A DNA stretch of 8,934 nucleotides, taken from IMG/VR virus record IMGVR_UViG_2700989168_000005. One strand, given 5' to 3'. Positions 3,279 through 8,934 of this stretch are shown in pieces (within the stretch, counting starts at the first letter, position 1; each line of letters opens with the position of its first letter). The stretch is from a virus (Duplodnaviria; Heunggongvirae; Uroviricota; Caudoviricetes). The position numbers and the translations under genes were made by a program. A model generated the notes under the pieces. That model did not search any database. It was not told the origin of the DNA and saw only the letters and a program-made list of their open reading frames with translations.

Positions 3279-4149
3279 TCATGGCATGGCCATGAGCATT
3301 TTCACGTCCGCATCACCGTCTGCTGACGTCTGTGGCACGCCACCCTGTACCGCTGCCGGTGAATGGTTCGCCATGAAATGTTCAAACATGGCGGTTGTGG
3401 ATGCAGAAANNNNNNNNNNNNNNNNNNNNNNNNNNNNNNNNNNNNNNNNNNNNNNNNNNNNNNNNNNNNNNNNNNNNNNNNNNNNNNNNNNNNNNNNNNN
3501 NNNNNNNNNNNNNNNNNNTCATCCCCGGACAGGCCGCCAGTTTTTCAGCCTGCGCCTCTGCCCCTTTTGCCTCATCCAGGGCCATAATCTGATCACGAAG
3601 TGAGGGTCCGGCATTCGCCTGCGGTGAAGCAGCCAGAATCGGACGGGCTTTTTCCACCGTCATCTCCGGCATCGCCGCCAGCGTTGCCGCCAGTTGTTCA
3701 CGTCCTTTCGCCTCTTCACATGCCATAATGCGATCGGCTTCACTCTGCGCAGATACACCAGATTGTTGCGGTGCCGCCACGGCCAGAATCGCCCGGGCCT
3801 GCTCAACGCTCATACCCTGTTGCCCTGCCAGCATCGTGGCCAGTTGTTCACGTCCTTTCGCTTCCTGACACGTCAGGATCCCCATCACTCGCTGGTTCTC
3901 CTGCGCGGCAGCCTCCGTTGCAGTTAATTGCGGCATAGTGCCTCCTGTATCGTGTGTGTTCAGCGTCGCAGCCATCACGCTGATGGCGTCCGACGCATTG
4001 ATTAATTCATCCGCCAGTTCGGCCTCAATACCGGACTGACCTTCAAAAACGGCGGCCTCTGTTCCCATAACCGCATCCACAGATAAACCGGTATACATCG
4101 CCACTTTTTCAGCAAACATCCGGCGCGCCGCATCAATGCGCTGCTGCAT
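3279..4149 (-). CDS. Nu3: scaffolding protein Nu3, putative in-frame nested product of C
   Basis: In lambda, Nu3 is translated from an internal in-frame start within C and shares its stop. A candidate internal ATG (Met231 of the C ORF, 4147-4149) lies at the equivalent position, with only a weak AAAGG upstream. Start site is inferred, not demonstrated. Confidence 0.3.
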
Positions 4150-4839
4150 GTCCTGGCGAACCTTTGCTGGCAGGGATTCAAACTGATTGCCATCCACCTT
4201 GTGCGATCCGGCGTAAATCAGCGTGATATCCACACCGGCCTGTGCCAGATGACCGGCATAGCTGACATGGCCCATCATCACCCCAATGGAGCCGATACGG
4301 GATGTCTGGGTAACCAGCCGTCGGGAGCAGGCCGATGCCAGTAACATGGCGGCTGAACAGGCCGTGTCATTGCACAGTGCCCAGACAGGCTTCAGCTGCC
4401 GGAGACGGTAAATCATGTCAGCGCAGTCAAACGCGCCGGTGGCCTGCCCGCCAGAACTGTCAATGTCCAGCAGTACGCCCCGTACCTGAGTGTCCGCCAT
4501 TGCCTGCTGAAGACAGGCGACAATGCCGTCATAGCCAGTCATTCCGGAAAATGGCCGCATGCCACCCAGCCGGTGTACCAGCGTGCCGGTCACCGGCAGT
4601 ACAGCAATACCGTTCACCACCCGGTAAACACGGGCAGGTCGTTTGCCTCCGGCCATGTACTCGTCCGTTTCAGCCAGCATCCCGGGAGCGTCAAGCTGTA
4701 CCTGCTGTTGCGGTACCGAAAGGCTTGCTGCGCCCATCTCACGCCCGAGCGCGCAAAAGAAAACCCGCGCATAGGCGGGCTCCAGAAGCAGCGGCTCATT
4801 GAATGCCGCAGCGATAATATGTGAAAGATTACGTCTCAC
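3279..4839 (-). CDS. C: capsid assembly protease / scaffold gpC (S49-family prohead protease), interrupted by an N-gap
   Basis: GTG start at 4839 with AGAGGAGA Shine-Dalgarno, overlapping the B 3' end. N-terminal and protease core are colinear with lambda gpC (AFNEPL-LEPAYARVFFCAL, NGIAVLPV-GTLV, SGMTGY-GI, KPVWAL-ND--CSA--LLASA-SRRLVTQT-R-GSIGVMM-H, ITLIY-GSHKVDGN, YTGLSV). The ORF track ends at 3382 because the N-run (3410-3518) is not frame-preserving. A lambda-like C-terminal tail (...HFMANHSPAAVQGGVPQTSADGDADVKMLMAMP*) is readable in another frame after the gap, with TGA at 3279-3281, so I place the true 3' end there. Confidence 0.8.
3410..3518. other. Run of 109 N (assembly gap or masked sequence) inside the C/Nu3 3' region
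   Basis: Directly visible. The gap abuts the tandem-repeat region and its length does not preserve the C reading frame. Confidence 1.
3519..3900 (-). repeat. Diverged tandem direct repeat (about 2.7 visible copies, period ~141-150 bp) encoding a repeated ~47-50 aa module in the C/Nu3 C-terminal scaffold region
   Basis: Protein copies: QRVMGILTCQEAKGREQLATMLAGQQGMSVEQARAILAVAAPQQ / DRIMACEEAKGREQLAATLAAMPEMTVEKARPILAASPQAN / DQIMALDEAKGAEAQAEKLAACPGM[gap]. At DNA level a 23-nt core GCCAGTTGTTCACGTCCTTTCGC is identical at 3689-3711 and 3839-3861 inside otherwise diverged copies. The third copy runs into the N-gap. Confidence 0.8.
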
Positions 4840-6422
4840 GTGATGTTGTCTCCTCTTCCGGCCTGCGACTCTCCGCTATCTGCTGCTGATACGCCTGGGC
4901 TATCCACACCGGACGTGAGAGTCCGGCTTTTTCGCGCTCTGCGGATTCCCTGACCTGCTGGCGGAAAATGTCCTGATAATCTTCGCCCATCAGTGCCAGT
5001 TCTTTCTCATACGTGCTCAGTCCGGCCTCAATGCGCATCACCGATTCCTGGACCTCCTTGAGCCCGTCAATGGCCATTCTTCCGGAGCTAATCCACTCTG
5101 CCCGTGACCAGGCTGAACGCGCCTGGTAAAAATCAAAACGCGCCCGTGGCGGACGAATAATCCCCCGAAGAAGCGCCTCTTCCAGCCAGCAGGAAAACAT
5201 CTGCGTGGCCAGCCGGGCCGCAATAAATTTTCGCCGCCCCATAAAATAGCGCCACGACTCATTGGCGGAGGCGCGGGCACTTGAGTAACTGACCTTCGAG
5301 TAATCACGGGACAACTGTTCGTAGGAAACGCCAAGACCGGCTGCAATATACCGCAGCAGCGCCTGTTCAAGCGCCGAAAATCCATTGTCTGAATCCTGCG
5401 CTGTCTGCAGGTTCAGCGCATCGCCAGGAAAAAAGGTGCGGAATTTTAACACCGCCCAGCGTCACGTTATTCGTGTCATACCAGCGGGTGAACTTCTCCA
5501 GAATATTAATAAGCGGATTATCCTGCTGACCTTGCGGTGCCCCCGCGATATATTCAAATGCCTTTTCGGTATCAAGTTCACTTTCGATTGTGGCTGCATA
5601 CATCGCCTTCACAATGGCCGACTGAAGCTGCGTGGCCTGCAGGGAGTCCAGCATCTTCATCCGCTCCATTACGCTGTAAAACTGATTAGCCCCACGGGTC
5701 TGCCCGTCCTCCACCGGCTCAAAAATATGCAGCATGGCCGGACGCCCGGTGGGAAGCTCACGCGGGATCCGCTCCCAGCGTCCGGCACCAGAGAACGGAA
5801 AATCATCCTCACAGATATGGTACGCAATCGCCCGCCCATACCGATCGACCTCAACCCCGGCCCGCAGAAAGTGGTTCCCCATACCGTGTCCTGGCGTGTC
5901 CACCCGTTTCGGACTCACGGCTTTAAAACGCGTACGGAATAACTGCGTGGTTTCCGTATCCCAGACCGGCTGCACAAAGATTTCGCCGTTAAAGGCATGC
6001 ACGCCCACCCCTTCACGGATAAATTCCGTAAACGTGCGTTTCCCTTCCACGTCGATCTCGCCAAACATTCCTTCTGCGTATTCCGACCAGGCTGCTTCCA
6101 CCTCCCCGACAAAACTTTTTGCCGTGGTCTCCCGCATCCCCAGCCAACGCCAGTTCAGACGGTAGCTGATAAGAAACATGTGCCCGACGATATGATCCTT
6201 ATGCAGGGCCACCGCATTAGCCGCGATACCGTTATTGCGCACCAGATCATCTGCCCGGGCATTCCCCAGACGCAATGCAGGCAACAGGGCCGCATCGGCA
6301 CTCTGCGCCGGTGGTAACCACTCTGCCATTTGCCCGCCAAATCCTGCGCCGCCTCCGTTGTAGCTGAGACTCTCACGAAGCGGAACGCCGTTCACATCAA
6401 TCAGGACAGGCGTTCGTTTCAT
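4829..6422 (-). CDS. B: portal protein gpB, reading frame interrupted by a 1-nt frameshift (extra A/T in homopolymer at 5429-5434)
   Basis: Two overlapping minus ORFs (5367-6422, 351 aa; 4829-5452, 207 aa) together span 1594 nt, about the size of lambda gpB (533 aa), and read as N- and C-terminal parts of one portal protein. Frames switch at coding-strand CTTTTTTCC; removing one T gives ...GVKIPHLF-PGDALNLQTAQDSDNG... continuously. Start ATG overlaps the W stop (ATGA). Confidence 0.85.
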
Positions 6423-6622
6423 AACCTCACTCCCAGCGGTCGGCGGCGTCGGGTCGTACCCAGAACCGACTCCGCATCGTTGATCGCACGGTTAAGCTCA
6501 TTCAGGGACGCTGCCGTATATTCGATCCTGCGACCGTCTTTCTGTACCGACACAACCCGTTTACCGGTTAATAAATCAAGGCGCGCCTGACGCAGCGCCT
6601 GCAGTTCAGCGACTGTAACCAT
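6419..6622 (-). CDS. W: head-tail joining / head completion protein gpW
   Basis: 67-aa ORF (lambda gpW is 68 aa) with L-TGKRV--VQKDGRR-E-TA-S and a C-terminal RRRR motif. Overlaps the A 3' end by 17 nt and the B start by 4 nt. Confidence 0.9.
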   Translation of the reverse strand: MVTVAELQALRQARLDLLTGKRVVSVQKDGRRIEYTAASLNELNRAINDAESVLGTTRRRRPLGVRL

Positions 6623-8597
6623 TCACTCCTCCGGACAGCTTCGCTGCCAGTTCTTCAAGGGTCGGTTGTGCAGTTGCATCCTTGCGGGATNNNNNNNNNN
6701 NNNNNNNNNNNNNNNNNNNNNNNNNNNNNNNNNNNNNNNNNNNNNNNNNNNNNNNNNNNNNNNNNNNNNNNNNNNNNNNNNNNNNNNGCACGGACACACG
6801 TAATGCCGCATAGGCATACACCAGGCAGTCCAGCGCTTCGTTACGCCGCTTTTTGTTATCCCACAACAGACGCATCTTTCCTTTTTCCCACTTTTCCACC
6901 AGTTCCTCCGCCACCAGTTGTTGTGCCTCTGTCTGCGAAAAAATCTCCGGATTATCAGGAAAGCGGATGGCATACGATGTGGCCTCATTCACAGGGGTGG
7001 GATCGGCCTTCATTCGGGCATAGAGAATTTCTTTTGCGGTATCCGTCCCCACCTCACACAGATACACACCCCGCTGATTGCGGGTTTTCGGCATGGTGAT
7101 CACCGGCTTGCCATAGACAGAGGCACCTTTTACCGGCAGTACCCGGAAAATACCGTGTTTTTTTGACCTCTGATACACGATTTCGCCATCGATCCCCCCG
7201 ATATCCCAGCAGACACGGGAAATGGTCATTTCGGTACCGTCTGCATGGCGGTATTTTTTATTGATCGCCGCATCCACACGTAACAGCGTCTCTTCCTCAT
7301 CAGGACGTCCCATGATGATGATTTTATCCACCAGAAAGGCTTCCTCTCCCGGAGCCCACCCCCAGACATACATCTCAAAACGGTTTCGCTGCGAGTCAAT
7401 GCCCGCCGTCAGATAAACCACCCGGACAGGCACCGTTGCCGTGTAAGGCACAACCTTATCCATCAGTACCTGGTGATCGAGTTTTTCGCCCACGGCCTCT
7501 TCCCAGGTCTCGCCCAGCGTGGTGTTCACAAAAGTTTTCACGCCGTTGGGATCTTTCAGTGCATCCAGCCAGTCACAGACTATCTGTACCCTGGTGGTGA
7601 ACGGACTGTACGCCGTCCATATATGGAAAGTGATGGAGCGCGGCGGCGGAATTTCATTACCCGAAGCACTGAAAAACGTCAGACCGTCACACGTCCACAT
7701 CCCGGTATTGTCACAAATCCAGCGCCCCCCGGTCTGATCAAGTTCAGACTGACGGATCACGCAGCCATTATGTTCACACAGGTAATACACCGTTTCCGGT
7801 TTACCCTTCTCCCATTTCAGGCCAAACGACGTCGCATCATCGCCAAACTTCAGATACTGCTCCTCCCCGCAATGAGGGCAAGGGACATAAAACCGCATGA
7901 AATGCGCAGATTCATTCGCAGCTTTTTCAATCTGACAGGAGCCTTTAATTTTTGGCGTTGAACCGCGTATGGATTTTGGCCATACCGAACCTTCAATACG
8001 TTTATCGCCAAGCAGTGTTGGCGAACCTTCTTTTTCCACATCCGGTTCAAACGAGGAGAGTTCGTCATAGCAGACCACATCGACAGATTTTTCACGGTAG
8101 TTTTTGGCAGCAGCACCACCCAAACACCAGAACCCCACACCAGAGGAAAAACGCTTCAGTGTGAGCGTATTATCCCGGTGTTTCCGGCCCAGCCAGGGAG
8201 AAAGTTTTTTCAGGCAAGGAACATCACGAATTGTTGCTTCCACGTGAGACTTCATAAAATCTTCAGCAGCTGAGTCCGTCGGCTGAAAAAGAAGAGTGTT
8301 GCGGGATTTGTGCTCAATAAAATACCCGATCACACCAAGCACCATTTTTGTATAACCAACACGGGCAGATTTAATCAGGTTAACTGTACGAATCTCGTCA
8401 TTGCCCATGCAGTTCATGATGGCGACCTGAAACTGCAGCGTTTTCCATTCCCCCTCACCGTATGACGATTCTTTAGGCAGGTAATAATTTTGATCGGCCC
8501 ATTCTACAGCCGTCACCGGCAATACCCTGACCAGTGGCTGCAGTGCGATAGTGACTGCCACCATCATATTACTCAGTTGTTGTTCTGATATATTCAT
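6606..8597 (-). CDS. A: terminase large subunit gpA (contains an N-gap near the 3' end)
   Basis: Strong colinear similarity to lambda gpA across the ORF (MNIS..., TAVEWAD-NYYLPKES, KSARVGY-KM-LGV, FIEHK-RNTL, NTLT-KRF--G-GFWCLGG-AAKNYREKSVDV, EGSPT-LGDKRIEGSVWPKSIRGSTPK, C-IE-AA-ES-HFMRF-V-CPHCGEEQYLKFGD, YLCEHN-CVIRQ, HIWTAYSPFTT, KTFVNTTLGETWE, YLTAGIDSQ, WGW-PGEE, IIMGR-D-E-TLLRVD-AINK, SKKHG-FRV-P-KGASVYGKPV, EQVEKW, LWD-KKRRNEALDC-VYA-AALR). ORF track starts at 8654, but homology begins at the ATG at 8597 (MNIS), which gives a ~29-nt overlap with the Nu1 3' end as in lambda. The N-run 6691-6787 lies near the C-terminus; the lambda-like tail resumes in frame after it. Confidence 0.95.
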   Translation of the reverse strand: MNISEQQLSNMMVAVTIALQPLVRVLPVTAVEWADQNYYLPKESSYGEGEWKTLQFQVAIMNCMGNDEIRTVNLIKSARVGYTKMVLGVIGYFIEHKSRNTLLFQPTDSAAEDFMKSHVEATIRDVPCLKKLSPWLGRKHRDNTLTLKRFSSGVGFWCLGGAAAKNYREKSVDVVCYDELSSFEPDVEKEGSPTLLGDKRIEGSVWPKSIRGSTPKIKGSCQIEKAANESAHFMRFYVPCPHCGEEQYLKFGDDATSFGLKWEKGKPETVYYLCEHNGCVIRQSELDQTGGRWICDNTGMWTCDGLTFFSASGNEIPPPRSITFHIWTAYSPFTTRVQIVCDWLDALKDPNGVKTFVNTTLGETWEEAVGEKLDHQVLMDKVVPYTATVPVRVVYLTAGIDSQRNRFEMYVWGWAPGEEAFLVDKIIIMGRPDEEETLLRVDAAINKKYRHADGTEMTISRVCWDIGGIDGEIVYQRSKKHGIFRVLPVKGASVYGKPVITMPKTRNQRGVYLCEVGTDTAKEILYARMKADPTPVNEATSYAIRFPDNPEIFSQTEAQQLVAEELVEKWEKGKMRLLWDNKKRRNEALDCLVYAYAALRVSVXXXXXXXXXXXXXXXXXXXXXXXXXXXXXXXXXSRKDATAQPTLEELAAKLSGGVNGYSR
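6691..6787. other. Run of 97 N (assembly gap or masked sequence) inside the 3' end of terminase large subunit gene A
   Basis: Directly visible. Confidence 1.
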
Positions 8598-8892
8598 CGA
8601 GTAAATCCGGTAATTTATCCCCCGCACGCGCGCACTGATTCGCTCCCTTAGCAATAAGGATTTTCAGATGATCAATATGACGCGGCGTTAAATCCGGGAA
8701 CTGTCGTTGCATGGACAAAGGAATGGAGTCAAGCGTACTGGATAAAGCCATCGCCAGCTTACTAAGGGCAAAAATACAAAATCCGGTATCGATAAGATTT
8801 CCTTTTGACACCTGATTTTTTAACTGCTGTGCGACAGCCTGTTCTGCGGTCAGTTCCCATCTGGCAATGAGTAGTTTGAGGTGTACTGGCAA
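8569..8892 (-). CDS. Nu1: terminase small subunit (Nu1-like), C-terminal two-thirds only; N-terminal DNA-binding domain absent (possible pseudogene or remnant)
   Basis: Translation from ~ARWELTAEQAVAQQLKN to the end aligns with lambda Nu1 from about residue 83 onward (ETAFCTFVLSRIAGEIASILDGLPLSVQRRFPELENRHVDFLK...LSEYIEQSG vs DTGFCIFALSKLAMALSSTLDSIPLSMQRQFPDLTPRHIDHLK...LDEYIRTTTE). The ORF track's start is a TTG at 8892 with no convincing Shine-Dalgarno. In-frame stops lie just upstream (TAG 8902-8904 and a TAA further upstream), and no other frame of 8893-8934 shows Nu1 similarity. Confidence 0.75.
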   Translation of the reverse strand: MPVHLKLLIARWELTAEQAVAQQLKNQVSKGNLIDTGFCIFALSKLAMALSSTLDSIPLSMQRQFPDLTPRHIDHLKILIAKGANQCARAGDKLPDLLDEYIRTTTE

Positions 8893-8934
8893 TAGCGGAC
8901 ACTACCATTTGTTCTTTTTTTAAGCAGCCATCTG

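What the first reader, a model, noticed from the sequence alone, without database searches (positions are those of the whole stretch)
8860..8934. Small terminase lacks its N-terminal DNA-binding domain; abrupt change of sequence character at the window edge
Similarity to lambda Nu1 starts only at about residue 83, covering the self-assembly and gpA-interaction regions. Upstream there are in-frame stops within 42 nt, no ATG or Shine-Dalgarno, and AT-rich sequence with no Nu1 similarity in any frame. The cosB-binding winged-helix domain would normally be encoded here. Possible explanations are a deletion or recombination junction marking the prophage end (a defective prophage), a mosaic exchange where the DNA-binding domain is now a separate upstream gene, or an insertion.
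Basis: partly seen in the sequence, partly recalled or inferred. Interest (0 to 1): 0.6.

Follow-up and report, generated by a model that had tools for sequence, protein, structure and literature searches.

The report
IS600 insertion truncating a prophage terminase gene
The small-terminase gene of this lambda-like prophage is cut off because a common Shigella jumping gene (IS600) sits in it; this is ordinary decay of a defective prophage, not a new kind of terminase.

Summary
On the minus strand, the Nu1-like small-terminase reading frame loses all similarity to intact relatives at window 8876/8877. It has no usable start and has in-frame stops just upstream.

The cause is plain. Window 8877-8934 is the last 58 nt of insertion sequence IS600 (IS3 family): the end of transposase orfB, then the right inverted repeat ending in CA.

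Intact E. coli relatives (99.8% identical downstream) encode a 169-aa protein. The window keeps only codons 68-169.

In Shigella flexneri 5b 8401 the same IS600 insertion is flanked by a 3-bp AAC duplication. The 67-codon N-terminal fragment and the cos site are still present upstream, so the ancestral event was a simple transposition.

The window is 100% identical to S. flexneri genomes that carry a second step. There, the left end of IS600 abuts a truncated Rz lysis gene, and about 3.2 kb has been deleted (cos, three small ORFs and the nu1 5' part).

The portal gene (+1 T at 5434) and, in the identical genomes, the 3' end of terL are also frameshifted.

Verdict: an IS-disrupted gene in a defective prophage, a well-known process in Shigella. 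It is not the prophage end and not a split or mosaic terminase. Interest is low.

The parts
8877..8934 (-). Last 58 nt of insertion sequence IS600 (nt 1207-1264 of 1264). It holds the last four codons and stop of transposase orfB (Q-M-A-A-*, 8934-8920) and the right terminal inverted repeat ...GGTAGTGTCCGCTATTGCCAGTACACCTCA, ending in CA at 8878-8877.
   Evidence: It is 100% identical to the end of a complete 1264-bp element (L001 1295-2558) with TG...CA ends and a 3-bp AAT duplication. RefSeq annotates that element as 'IS3-like element IS600 family transposase'. The sequence is multi-copy, with up to 43 places per E. coli genome.
8874..8876 (-). AAC, the right-hand copy of the 3-bp target-site duplication made when IS600 entered nu1 (bases 2-3 of codon 68 and base 1 of codon 69).
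   Evidence: In S. flexneri 5b 8401 (L012) the left junction reads ...GAAGAGAAAC|TGAGGTAGCC and the right junction ...CACCTCA|AACTACTC.
8569..8876 (-). Remnant of the Nu1-type small terminase gene: codons 68-169 of 169 plus the TAA stop. It encodes the self-assembly and TerL-binding part. The 67 N-terminal codons, the start codon and the ribosome-binding site are missing.
   Evidence: The 308 nt are 100% identical to L002 3002-3309, within the intact 169-aa 'terminase small subunit' WP_074132335.1. Pfam PF07471 E=5.6e-19, profile positions 85-163. 45% identity to lambda Nu1 residues 86-180.
6606..8597 (-). Large terminase gene (gpA-like). Its ATG at 8597 overlaps the end of the nu1 remnant. 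It contains the N-masked run 6691-6787.
   Evidence: Called genes carry PF05876 GpA_ATPase and PF20454 GpA_nuclease. The start is as annotated in L002. In genomes otherwise identical to the window, the masked stretch holds a 1-bp deletion that changes the last ~30 residues (636 aa against 642 aa).
4829..6422 (-). Portal gene split into 351-aa and 207-aa ORFs by a +1 frameshift (extra T in a T-run at 5434). This is a second lesion of the same defective prophage.
   Evidence: T6 in the window against T5 in the intact relative L002. Both pieces are called as PF05136 Phage_portal_2.

Best explanation
The window ends 58 nt inside a copy of IS600 (IS3 family) that transposed into codon 68 of the Nu1-type small-terminase gene of a lambda-like prophage of Shigella flexneri. 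That transposition made a 3-bp AAC duplication.

In the lineage the window belongs to, a second IS600-associated event fused the left end of the IS to codon ~134 of the Rz lysis gene. This deleted about 3.2 kb relative to 8401-type strains (about 1.95 kb of phage DNA plus another IS600 copy). The deleted DNA held the Rz 3' end, three small ORFs, the cos site with its repeated AACCGGACAT elements, and the first 67 codons of nu1.

What remains at 8569-8876 is a promoterless, startless pseudogene for the C-terminal (assembly and TerL-binding) part of the protein. Without the DNA-recognition domain and without cos, the prophage cannot recognise or cut its own DNA for packaging. Frameshifts in the portal gene and at the terL 3' end confirm that it is a decaying, defective prophage.

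Shown directly: the identity of the IS, the junction position, the target duplication in relatives, and the absence of cos and the nu1 5' part next to the junction in identical genomes.

Inferred: that the window's own source genome has the deletion form; that the remnant is not expressed; and whether the deletion was one-step or arose by recombination between two IS600 copies.
For: - **IS end.** The first 58-60 bases on the gene strand match a multi-copy element at 100%. That element is a 1264-bp IS with TG...CA ends, orfA (HTH_Tnp_1) and orfB (rve). RefSeq annotates it as IS600.
- **Intact reference.** E. coli FDAARGOS_943 has a 169-aa terminase small subunit. Its DNA is 99.8% identical to the window from codon 68 onward and unrelated before it.
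- **Simple insertion form.** S. flexneri 5b 8401 (CP000266; identity of the record) shows nu1 codons 1-68 | IS600 | AAC-duplicated codons 68-169, with the cos region 99.2% identical to the intact relative.
- **Deletion form.** All nine loci in which the left end was readable show the identical left junction ...ATCCGGGACGGG|TGAGGTAGCC in Rz. They have no matching duplication, and no cos or nu1 5' DNA within the 4-10 kb of upstream DNA held for each locus.
- **Window assignment.** The window is 100% identical over all unmasked bases to four deletion-form genomes (L006, L008, L011, L013). It differs at 31-34 substituted positions, plus gaps in L012, from the two insertion-form genomes.
- **Missing part is the Nu1 DNA-binding domain.** The 70-aa fragment and lambda Nu1 residues 1-66 hit the same N-terminal columns of phrog_57 'terminase small subunit' (E=1.5e-11 and 8.6e-26).
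- **Other lesions.** Portal +1 frameshift and terL 3' frameshift.
- **Background.** IS600 is one of five IS expanded in all Shigella species and a major source of pseudogenes (PMC7373316).
Against: - The window stops 58 nt into the IS, so what lies beyond it in its own source genome is not seen directly. The deletion form is assigned by sequence identity only.
- One base at the left junction (G where 8401-type Rz has A) is unexplained.
- Pairwise comparison does not detect similarity between the missing N-terminal 70 aa and lambda Nu1 1-85, nor to any solved structure. Its DNA-binding role rests on the profile match and position, not on a structure.
- Non-expression of the remnant is inferred: no promoter-like site was found in a simple scan, there is no SD, and the only start is TTG.
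Confidence: 0.93

Rival explanations
1. Simple-insertion form: in the window's own genome IS600 merely interrupts nu1, as in S. flexneri 5b 8401. The 67-codon N-terminal fragment and cos would still be present on the far side of the IS, with no deletion.
For: The right junction is identical in both forms, and the window cannot see the left side.
Against: The window is 100% identical to four deletion-form genomes. It differs at 31-34 substituted positions (plus gaps in L012) from both insertion-form genomes.
Confidence: 0.06
2. Functional split or mosaic small terminase: the DNA-binding domain is made from a separate upstream gene and works together with a separately translated C-terminal protein.
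For: In 8401-type strains a 70-aa ORF with the N-terminal domain and a cos site exist upstream. PHROGs holds separate families for the two halves.
Against: - The two pieces are separated by IS600 carrying a nested second IS (about 2.6 kb), with a perfect 3-bp target duplication. That is the signature of gene disruption.
- The remnant has no ATG or SD.
- In the window's lineage the N-terminal piece and cos are deleted.
- The portal and terL genes are also frameshifted.
Confidence: 0.01
3. Prophage end: the break marks the boundary between the prophage and host chromosome.
For: Abrupt loss of phage homology at the window edge.
Against: Beyond the IS, the same prophage continues in lambda order and orientation with Rz, lysozyme, holin, Q, NinH and DnaB-like genes.
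Confidence: 0.005

Closest known systems
IS600 (IS3 family) insertions that create pseudogenes in Shigella genomes
   Same: The terminal 58 nt are identical to IS600. Related loci show TG...CA ends, orfA/orfB with HTH_Tnp_1 and rve domains, and a 3-bp target duplication. There are many copies per genome. The element disrupts a gene and is associated with an adjacent deletion, as described generally for Shigella IS (PMC7373316, PMC1550401).
   Different: Nothing of substance. Only the last 58 nt lie in the window. In some strains this copy itself carries a nested IS629-like element.
Lambda gpNu1 (small terminase; N-terminal winged-helix cosB-binding domain, central self-assembly region, C-terminal gpA-binding region)
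   Same: The remnant is 45% identical to Nu1 residues 86-180. It overlaps the start of a gpA-like terL, in lambda gene order (Nu1, A, W, B, C, D, E, FI, FII, Z, U).
   Different: The N-terminal domain is absent from the window. Even in the intact 169-aa relative that domain is too diverged from lambda's to be found by BLASTP or Pfam. It is recognised only through the phrog_57 profile, which is consistent with a different cosB specificity (AACCGGACAT repeats).
Nu1-homologue remnants in cryptic E. coli K-12 prophages (nohA/nohD in Qin and DLP12; cited from my own knowledge, not tested here)
   Same: Leftover small-terminase genes in defective lambdoid prophages.
   Different: Those are full-length nu1 homologues left without the downstream head genes. 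Here the head genes remain and nu1 itself is truncated at its 5' end by an IS.

Membership tests
IS600 (IS3 family insertion sequence) | Near-identity of DNA to the IS600 reference element | tested here: met
   Window 8877-8934 is 100% identical to nt 1207-1264 of a 1264-bp element that RefSeq annotates as 'IS3-like element IS600 family transposase'. In genomes identical to the window, the complete copy at this locus is 99.4% identical to it.
IS600 (IS3 family insertion sequence) | Terminal inverted repeats starting 5'-TG and ending CA-3' | tested here: met
   IRL is TGAGGTAGCC... and IRR is ...CAGTACACCTCA. The window holds the IRR only.
IS600 (IS3 family insertion sequence) | Two overlapping ORFs (orfA with HTH, orfB with a DDE/rve catalytic core) | tested here: met
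   L006 orfA hits PF01527 (E=8.5e-21) and orfB hits PF00665 rve (E=8.6e-26). This was seen in related loci. The window holds only the last four orfB codons.
IS600 (IS3 family insertion sequence) | 3-bp direct target duplication at a simple insertion | tested here: met
   AAC/AAC around the nu1 insertion in L012 and L014; AAT/AAT in L001. It is absent in the deletion form (GGG/AAC), as expected after a rearrangement.
Lambda Nu1-type small terminase (Pfam PF07471 Phage_Nu1 / phrog_57) | C-terminal assembly and TerL-interaction region | tested here: met
   PF07471 E=5.6e-19, profile positions 85-163 of 164. phrog_57 columns 87-189. 45% identity to lambda Nu1 residues 86-180.
Lambda Nu1-type small terminase (Pfam PF07471 Phage_Nu1 / phrog_57) | N-terminal HTH / winged-helix DNA-binding domain | tested here: not met
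   It is absent from the window; the frame is closed by stops at 8904-8902 and 8922-8920 and runs into IS600. It is present in the intact relative and in the 8401 fragment (phrog_57 columns 12-89, E=1.5e-11).
Lambda Nu1-type small terminase (Pfam PF07471 Phage_Nu1 / phrog_57) | Complete ORF with start codon and ribosome-binding site, preceded by a cos site | tested here: not met
   There is no in-frame ATG or SD, only a TTG at 8892 inside the IS end. No cos-region DNA lies next to the junction in identical genomes.
Functional split (two-gene) small terminase | A separate, adjacent, translatable gene for the DNA-binding domain plus a cos site, with no disruption signature | tested here: not met
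   In the window's lineage both are deleted. In 8401-type strains they are separated from the remnant by IS600 plus a nested IS, flanked by a target duplication.

The most novel reading that the evidence does not exclude
The remnant might still be translated, from the TTG at 8892 inside the IS600 right end or by read-through from IS600 transcription. This would give a 102-107-aa Nu1 C-terminal protein that lacks DNA binding but can still bind a gpA-type large terminase. Such a protein could poison the terminase of superinfecting lambdoid phages, so a domesticated prophage fragment would act as a decoy-type phage defence. Nothing here supports expression. The perfect conservation of the ORF across S. 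flexneri genomes is explained by clonal descent.
Probability: 0.03. Interest if true: 0.5.

Novelty: already known. Interest (0 to 1): 0.08.

Why it matters
It matters little beyond correct annotation.

- The locus should be annotated as a nu1 pseudogene truncated by IS600 within a defective lambdoid prophage of S. flexneri.
- It should not be flagged as an unusual terminase architecture or as a prophage boundary.
- It is a tidy worked example of two-step IS-driven prophage decay (insertion, then loss of cos by deletion next to the IS). Both stages are preserved in different S. flexneri lineages.
- It also shows that 'similarity to the model phage protein begins late' can simply reflect a diverged domain.

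Tried and rejected
- **Composition.** The last 58 nt are not more AT-rich than the nu1 remnant (43% against 44% GC), so there is no compositional junction.
- **E. coli genomes.** Among 5,426 complete E. coli genomes the best places cover only query bases 58-535. No genome in that set carries the IS600|nu1 junction.
- **Intermediate for the deletion.** I scanned metagenome contigs for an IS600 right end joined to the Rz 3' part, looking for a second IS600 in Rz. It gave 0 hits.
- **IS600 SNPs.** I tried to use them to tell a recombinant IS from a one-step deletion. The orthologous copy differs between strains in a patchwork shared with other copies, so it is uninformative.
- **Missing N-terminal domain.** Direct similarity to lambda Nu1 1-85 was not above shuffles. 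No solved structure matched and no NCBIfam model matched. Only the PHROG profile links them.
- **Promoter and terminator scan** of 8400-8934 found nothing.
- **Lambda cosN.** The 12-mer GGGCGGCGACCT is absent from all related loci. The relatives' cos is recognised instead through the shared CTATTTATGAAAATTTT motif.
- **Literature.** Searches found general accounts of IS600 expansion and IS-mediated rearrangement in Shigella, but no paper describing this particular junction.

Full report
**1. The observation**

The genes of this window lie on the minus strand in lambda order: U, Z, FII, FI, E, D, C, B, W, A, Nu1. 'Upstream' of the small-terminase gene therefore means toward coordinate 8934.

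Translating the Nu1 frame back from its TAA (8571-8569) gives ...QMAA*KKNKW*CPLLPVHLKLLIARWELTAEQAVAQQLKN....

- In-frame stops lie at 8922-8920 and 8904-8902.
- There is no in-frame ATG. The only start-like codon is a TTG at 8892, with no Shine-Dalgarno.
- BLASTP to lambda Nu1 begins at Nu1 residue 86.
- Pfam Phage_Nu1 covers only profile positions 85-163 of 164.

So the described feature is real and lies within the reported coordinates. However, the base composition does not change at the break: 43% GC in 8877-8934 against 44% in the remnant.

**2. What the edge sequence is**

A megablast of the last 535 bases gave a two-part result.

- Bases 58-535 on the gene strand match intact 'terminase small subunit / large subunit' loci in E. 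coli at up to 99.8%.
- Bases 1-60 match a multi-copy element, with up to 43 places per genome and also present in Stx phages.

In one Stx2a phage that element is a complete 1264-bp insertion sequence. It starts TGAGGTAGCC... and ends ...GGTAGTGTCCGCTATTGCCAGTACACCTCA. It is flanked by a 3-bp AAT duplication. It has a 100-aa orfA and a 272-aa orfB ending ...REKYHQMAA*.

- RefSeq annotates the same sequence as 'IS3-like element IS600 family transposase'.
- The ORFs carry HTH_Tnp_1 and rve domains.

Window 8877-8934 is therefore the last 58 nt of IS600. The QMAA* at the very edge is the end of its transposase, and the CA at 8878-8877 is the IS terminus.

**3. What is missing**

The intact relative in E. 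coli FDAARGOS_943 (L002 2800-3309, WP_074132335.1) is 169 aa. The window matches it from L002 base 3002 onward, which is the second base of codon 68. The 308 nt of the remnant are 100% identical. The window thus lacks 202 nt, that is 67 codons plus the start and ribosome-binding site.

The intact protein also aligns to lambda Nu1 only from its residue 73, and to Pfam only from residue 71. Late onset of lambda similarity is therefore a property of this terminase lineage and is not the evidence for truncation.

The missing part nevertheless corresponds to the Nu1 DNA-binding domain.

- The 70-aa fragment and lambda Nu1 residues 1-66 both match the N-terminal columns of phrog_57 'terminase small subunit' (E=1.5e-11 and 8.6e-26).
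- Direct pairwise similarity is nil.
- No solved structure or NCBIfam model is hit.

**4. What lies beyond the window**

The exact junction occurs in Shigella flexneri SFBU1023 and in a record labelled E. coli ECMA0423. The 107-aa ORF (TTG 8892 to the stop) is on record in 362 blocks of the public assembly collection.

The ten loci fetched with 10-kb flanks, plus L004 from the junction scan, show two architectures.

*Form B* (L012 = CP000266, S. flexneri 5b 8401; and L014). The order is:

- full-length Rz,
- an inverted IS600,
- three small ORFs,
- the cos region (99.2% identical to the intact relative),
- nu1 codons 1-68,
- IS600 carrying a nested second IS,
- the remnant.

The junctions read ...GAAGAGAAAC|TGAGGTAGCC and ...CACCTCA|AACTACTC. 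This is a perfect 3-bp AAC target duplication, the signature of a simple IS600 transposition into nu1.

*Form A* (L004-L011 and L013). The same right junction is present, but the IS600 left end abuts Rz codon ~134 (...ATCCGGGACGGG|TGAGGTAGCC). There is no matching duplication. Neither the cos region nor the nu1 5' part occurs in the 4-10 kb of upstream DNA held for these loci. Relative to form B, 3,218 bp are missing, or 1,954 bp excluding the inverted IS600.

The window is 100% identical over all unmasked bases to four form-A genomes. It differs from the two form-B genomes at 31-34 substituted positions, plus gaps in L012. It therefore almost certainly comes from a form-A genome.

**5. Mechanism**

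*Step 1 (shown).* IS600 transposed into nu1 codon 68 in an ancestor of both forms.

*Step 2 (shown as an outcome; the mechanism is inferred).* A deletion anchored on the IS600 left end removed everything between Rz codon ~134 and the IS. Two routes would leave one IS600 with non-matching flanks:

- an IS600-mediated adjacent deletion, or
- homologous recombination between this copy and a second, directly oriented IS600 inserted in Rz.

I could not separate them.

- No intermediate was found in the metagenome scan.
- IS600 SNPs are scrambled among copies.
- One base at the left breakpoint (G against A) remains unexplained.

*Consequence (inference from the established lambda packaging pathway).* In lambda, gpNu1's N-terminal domain binds the cosB R elements and positions gpA at cosN. 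This prophage has lost both the DNA-recognition domain and the cos site. In the intact relative the cos region contains a lambda-like CTATTTATGAAAATTTT motif and three AACCGGACAT repeats. The prophage therefore cannot package itself.

Other lesions agree with this.

- The portal gene has a +1 T frameshift at 5434.
- In the identical genomes, terL has a 1-bp deletion that replaces its last ~30 residues. That site is hidden under the window's N mask at 6691-6787.

The remnant has no promoter-like site in a simple scan, no SD and no ATG. It is best regarded as a pseudogene.

**6. Comparison with what is known**

This is a standard case of IS-driven gene inactivation in Shigella.

- IS600 is one of five IS expanded in all Shigella species and a major source of pseudogenes (PMC7373316).
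- IS-mediated deletions and inversions distinguish S. flexneri 5b 8401 from 2a strains (PMC1550401).

No paper describing this particular junction was found, but it is present and annotated in many public genomes.

The locus is not a member of any 'split terminase' class. The defining feature, a translatable adjacent DNA-binding gene without a disruption signature, was tested and not met. It is also not the prophage end, because lysis, Q and replication genes of the same prophage lie beyond the IS.

**7. Verdict**

Novelty: already known. Interest: low (0.08).

The only non-trivial reading left open is that the C-terminal remnant is expressed and interferes with the terminases of incoming lambdoid phages. 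I give that about 3%.

Noticed in passing
window 3410-3518 and 6691-6787: Two runs of N (109 and 97 bases). In genomes otherwise 100% identical to the window, the real DNA there is 54 and 33 nt, so the masks do not preserve length. ORF lengths across them (gpC-like and terL) are therefore unreliable.
   Followed up: yes
window 6691-6787 (masked); L006 12106-12138: Under the mask, form-A genomes carry a 1-bp deletion relative to the intact E. coli relative. It shifts the frame of the last ~30 codons of terL (636 aa against 642 aa). In lambda gpA that region contacts the prohead (from my own knowledge).
   Followed up: partly
window 5434 (portal gene, 4829-6422, minus strand): An extra T in a T-run (T6 against T5 in the intact relative) splits the portal gene into 351-aa and 207-aa ORFs. 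The 351-aa N-terminal portal ORF is also called in the 8401-type strains, which suggests the frameshift predates the cos deletion.
   Followed up: partly
L002 2560-2800 (intact E. coli relative); L012 6975-7234: A lambda-like cos region upstream of intact nu1. It shares the CTATTTATGAAAATTTT motif with lambda cos and has three copies of AACCGGACAT (one inverted), arranged like lambda cosB R sites but with a different sequence.
   Followed up: partly
L012 7624-8932; L014 6344-8932; L003/L004/L010 inside IS600: The IS600 copy in nu1 has itself been hit by other IS. An IS629-like element (TGAACCGCCCCGGG...) sits after IS600 nt 184 in 8401-type strains and after nt 377 in SFBU1023/ECMA0423. L014 also carries an extra complete IS600. 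These are independent nested insertions at one locus.
   Followed up: partly
L004/L010 (CP178302.1): The record is titled Escherichia coli ECMA0423, but it carries the S. flexneri-type Rz|IS600|nu1 junctions and the same nested IS as S. flexneri SFBU1023. It is probably a Shigella or EIEC genome labelled as E. coli.
   Followed up: no
IS600 copies at L005-L014 (e.g. L006 8753-10016): The orthologous IS600 copy differs between strains by a patchwork of SNPs (positions 242, 497, 604, 621, 816, 1026, 1182). These are shared with other IS600 copies, which suggests gene conversion among copies or repeat-collapse artefacts in the assemblies. L005 has a dense cluster of changes at positions 781-799.
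   Followed up: partly
PHROGs hits to L002 2800-3309: PHROGs holds separate families for the N-terminal half (phrog_7289, 91 columns, 'unknown function') and the C-terminal half (phrog_1790, 114 columns) of this small terminase. Truncated or split copies like this one have therefore been deposited often enough to seed their own families.
   Followed up: no
L006 8752 / L014 2959: At the Rz|IS600 breakpoint of the deletion form there is a G where the undeleted Rz has an A. This single base is not explained by either flank.
   Followed up: partly
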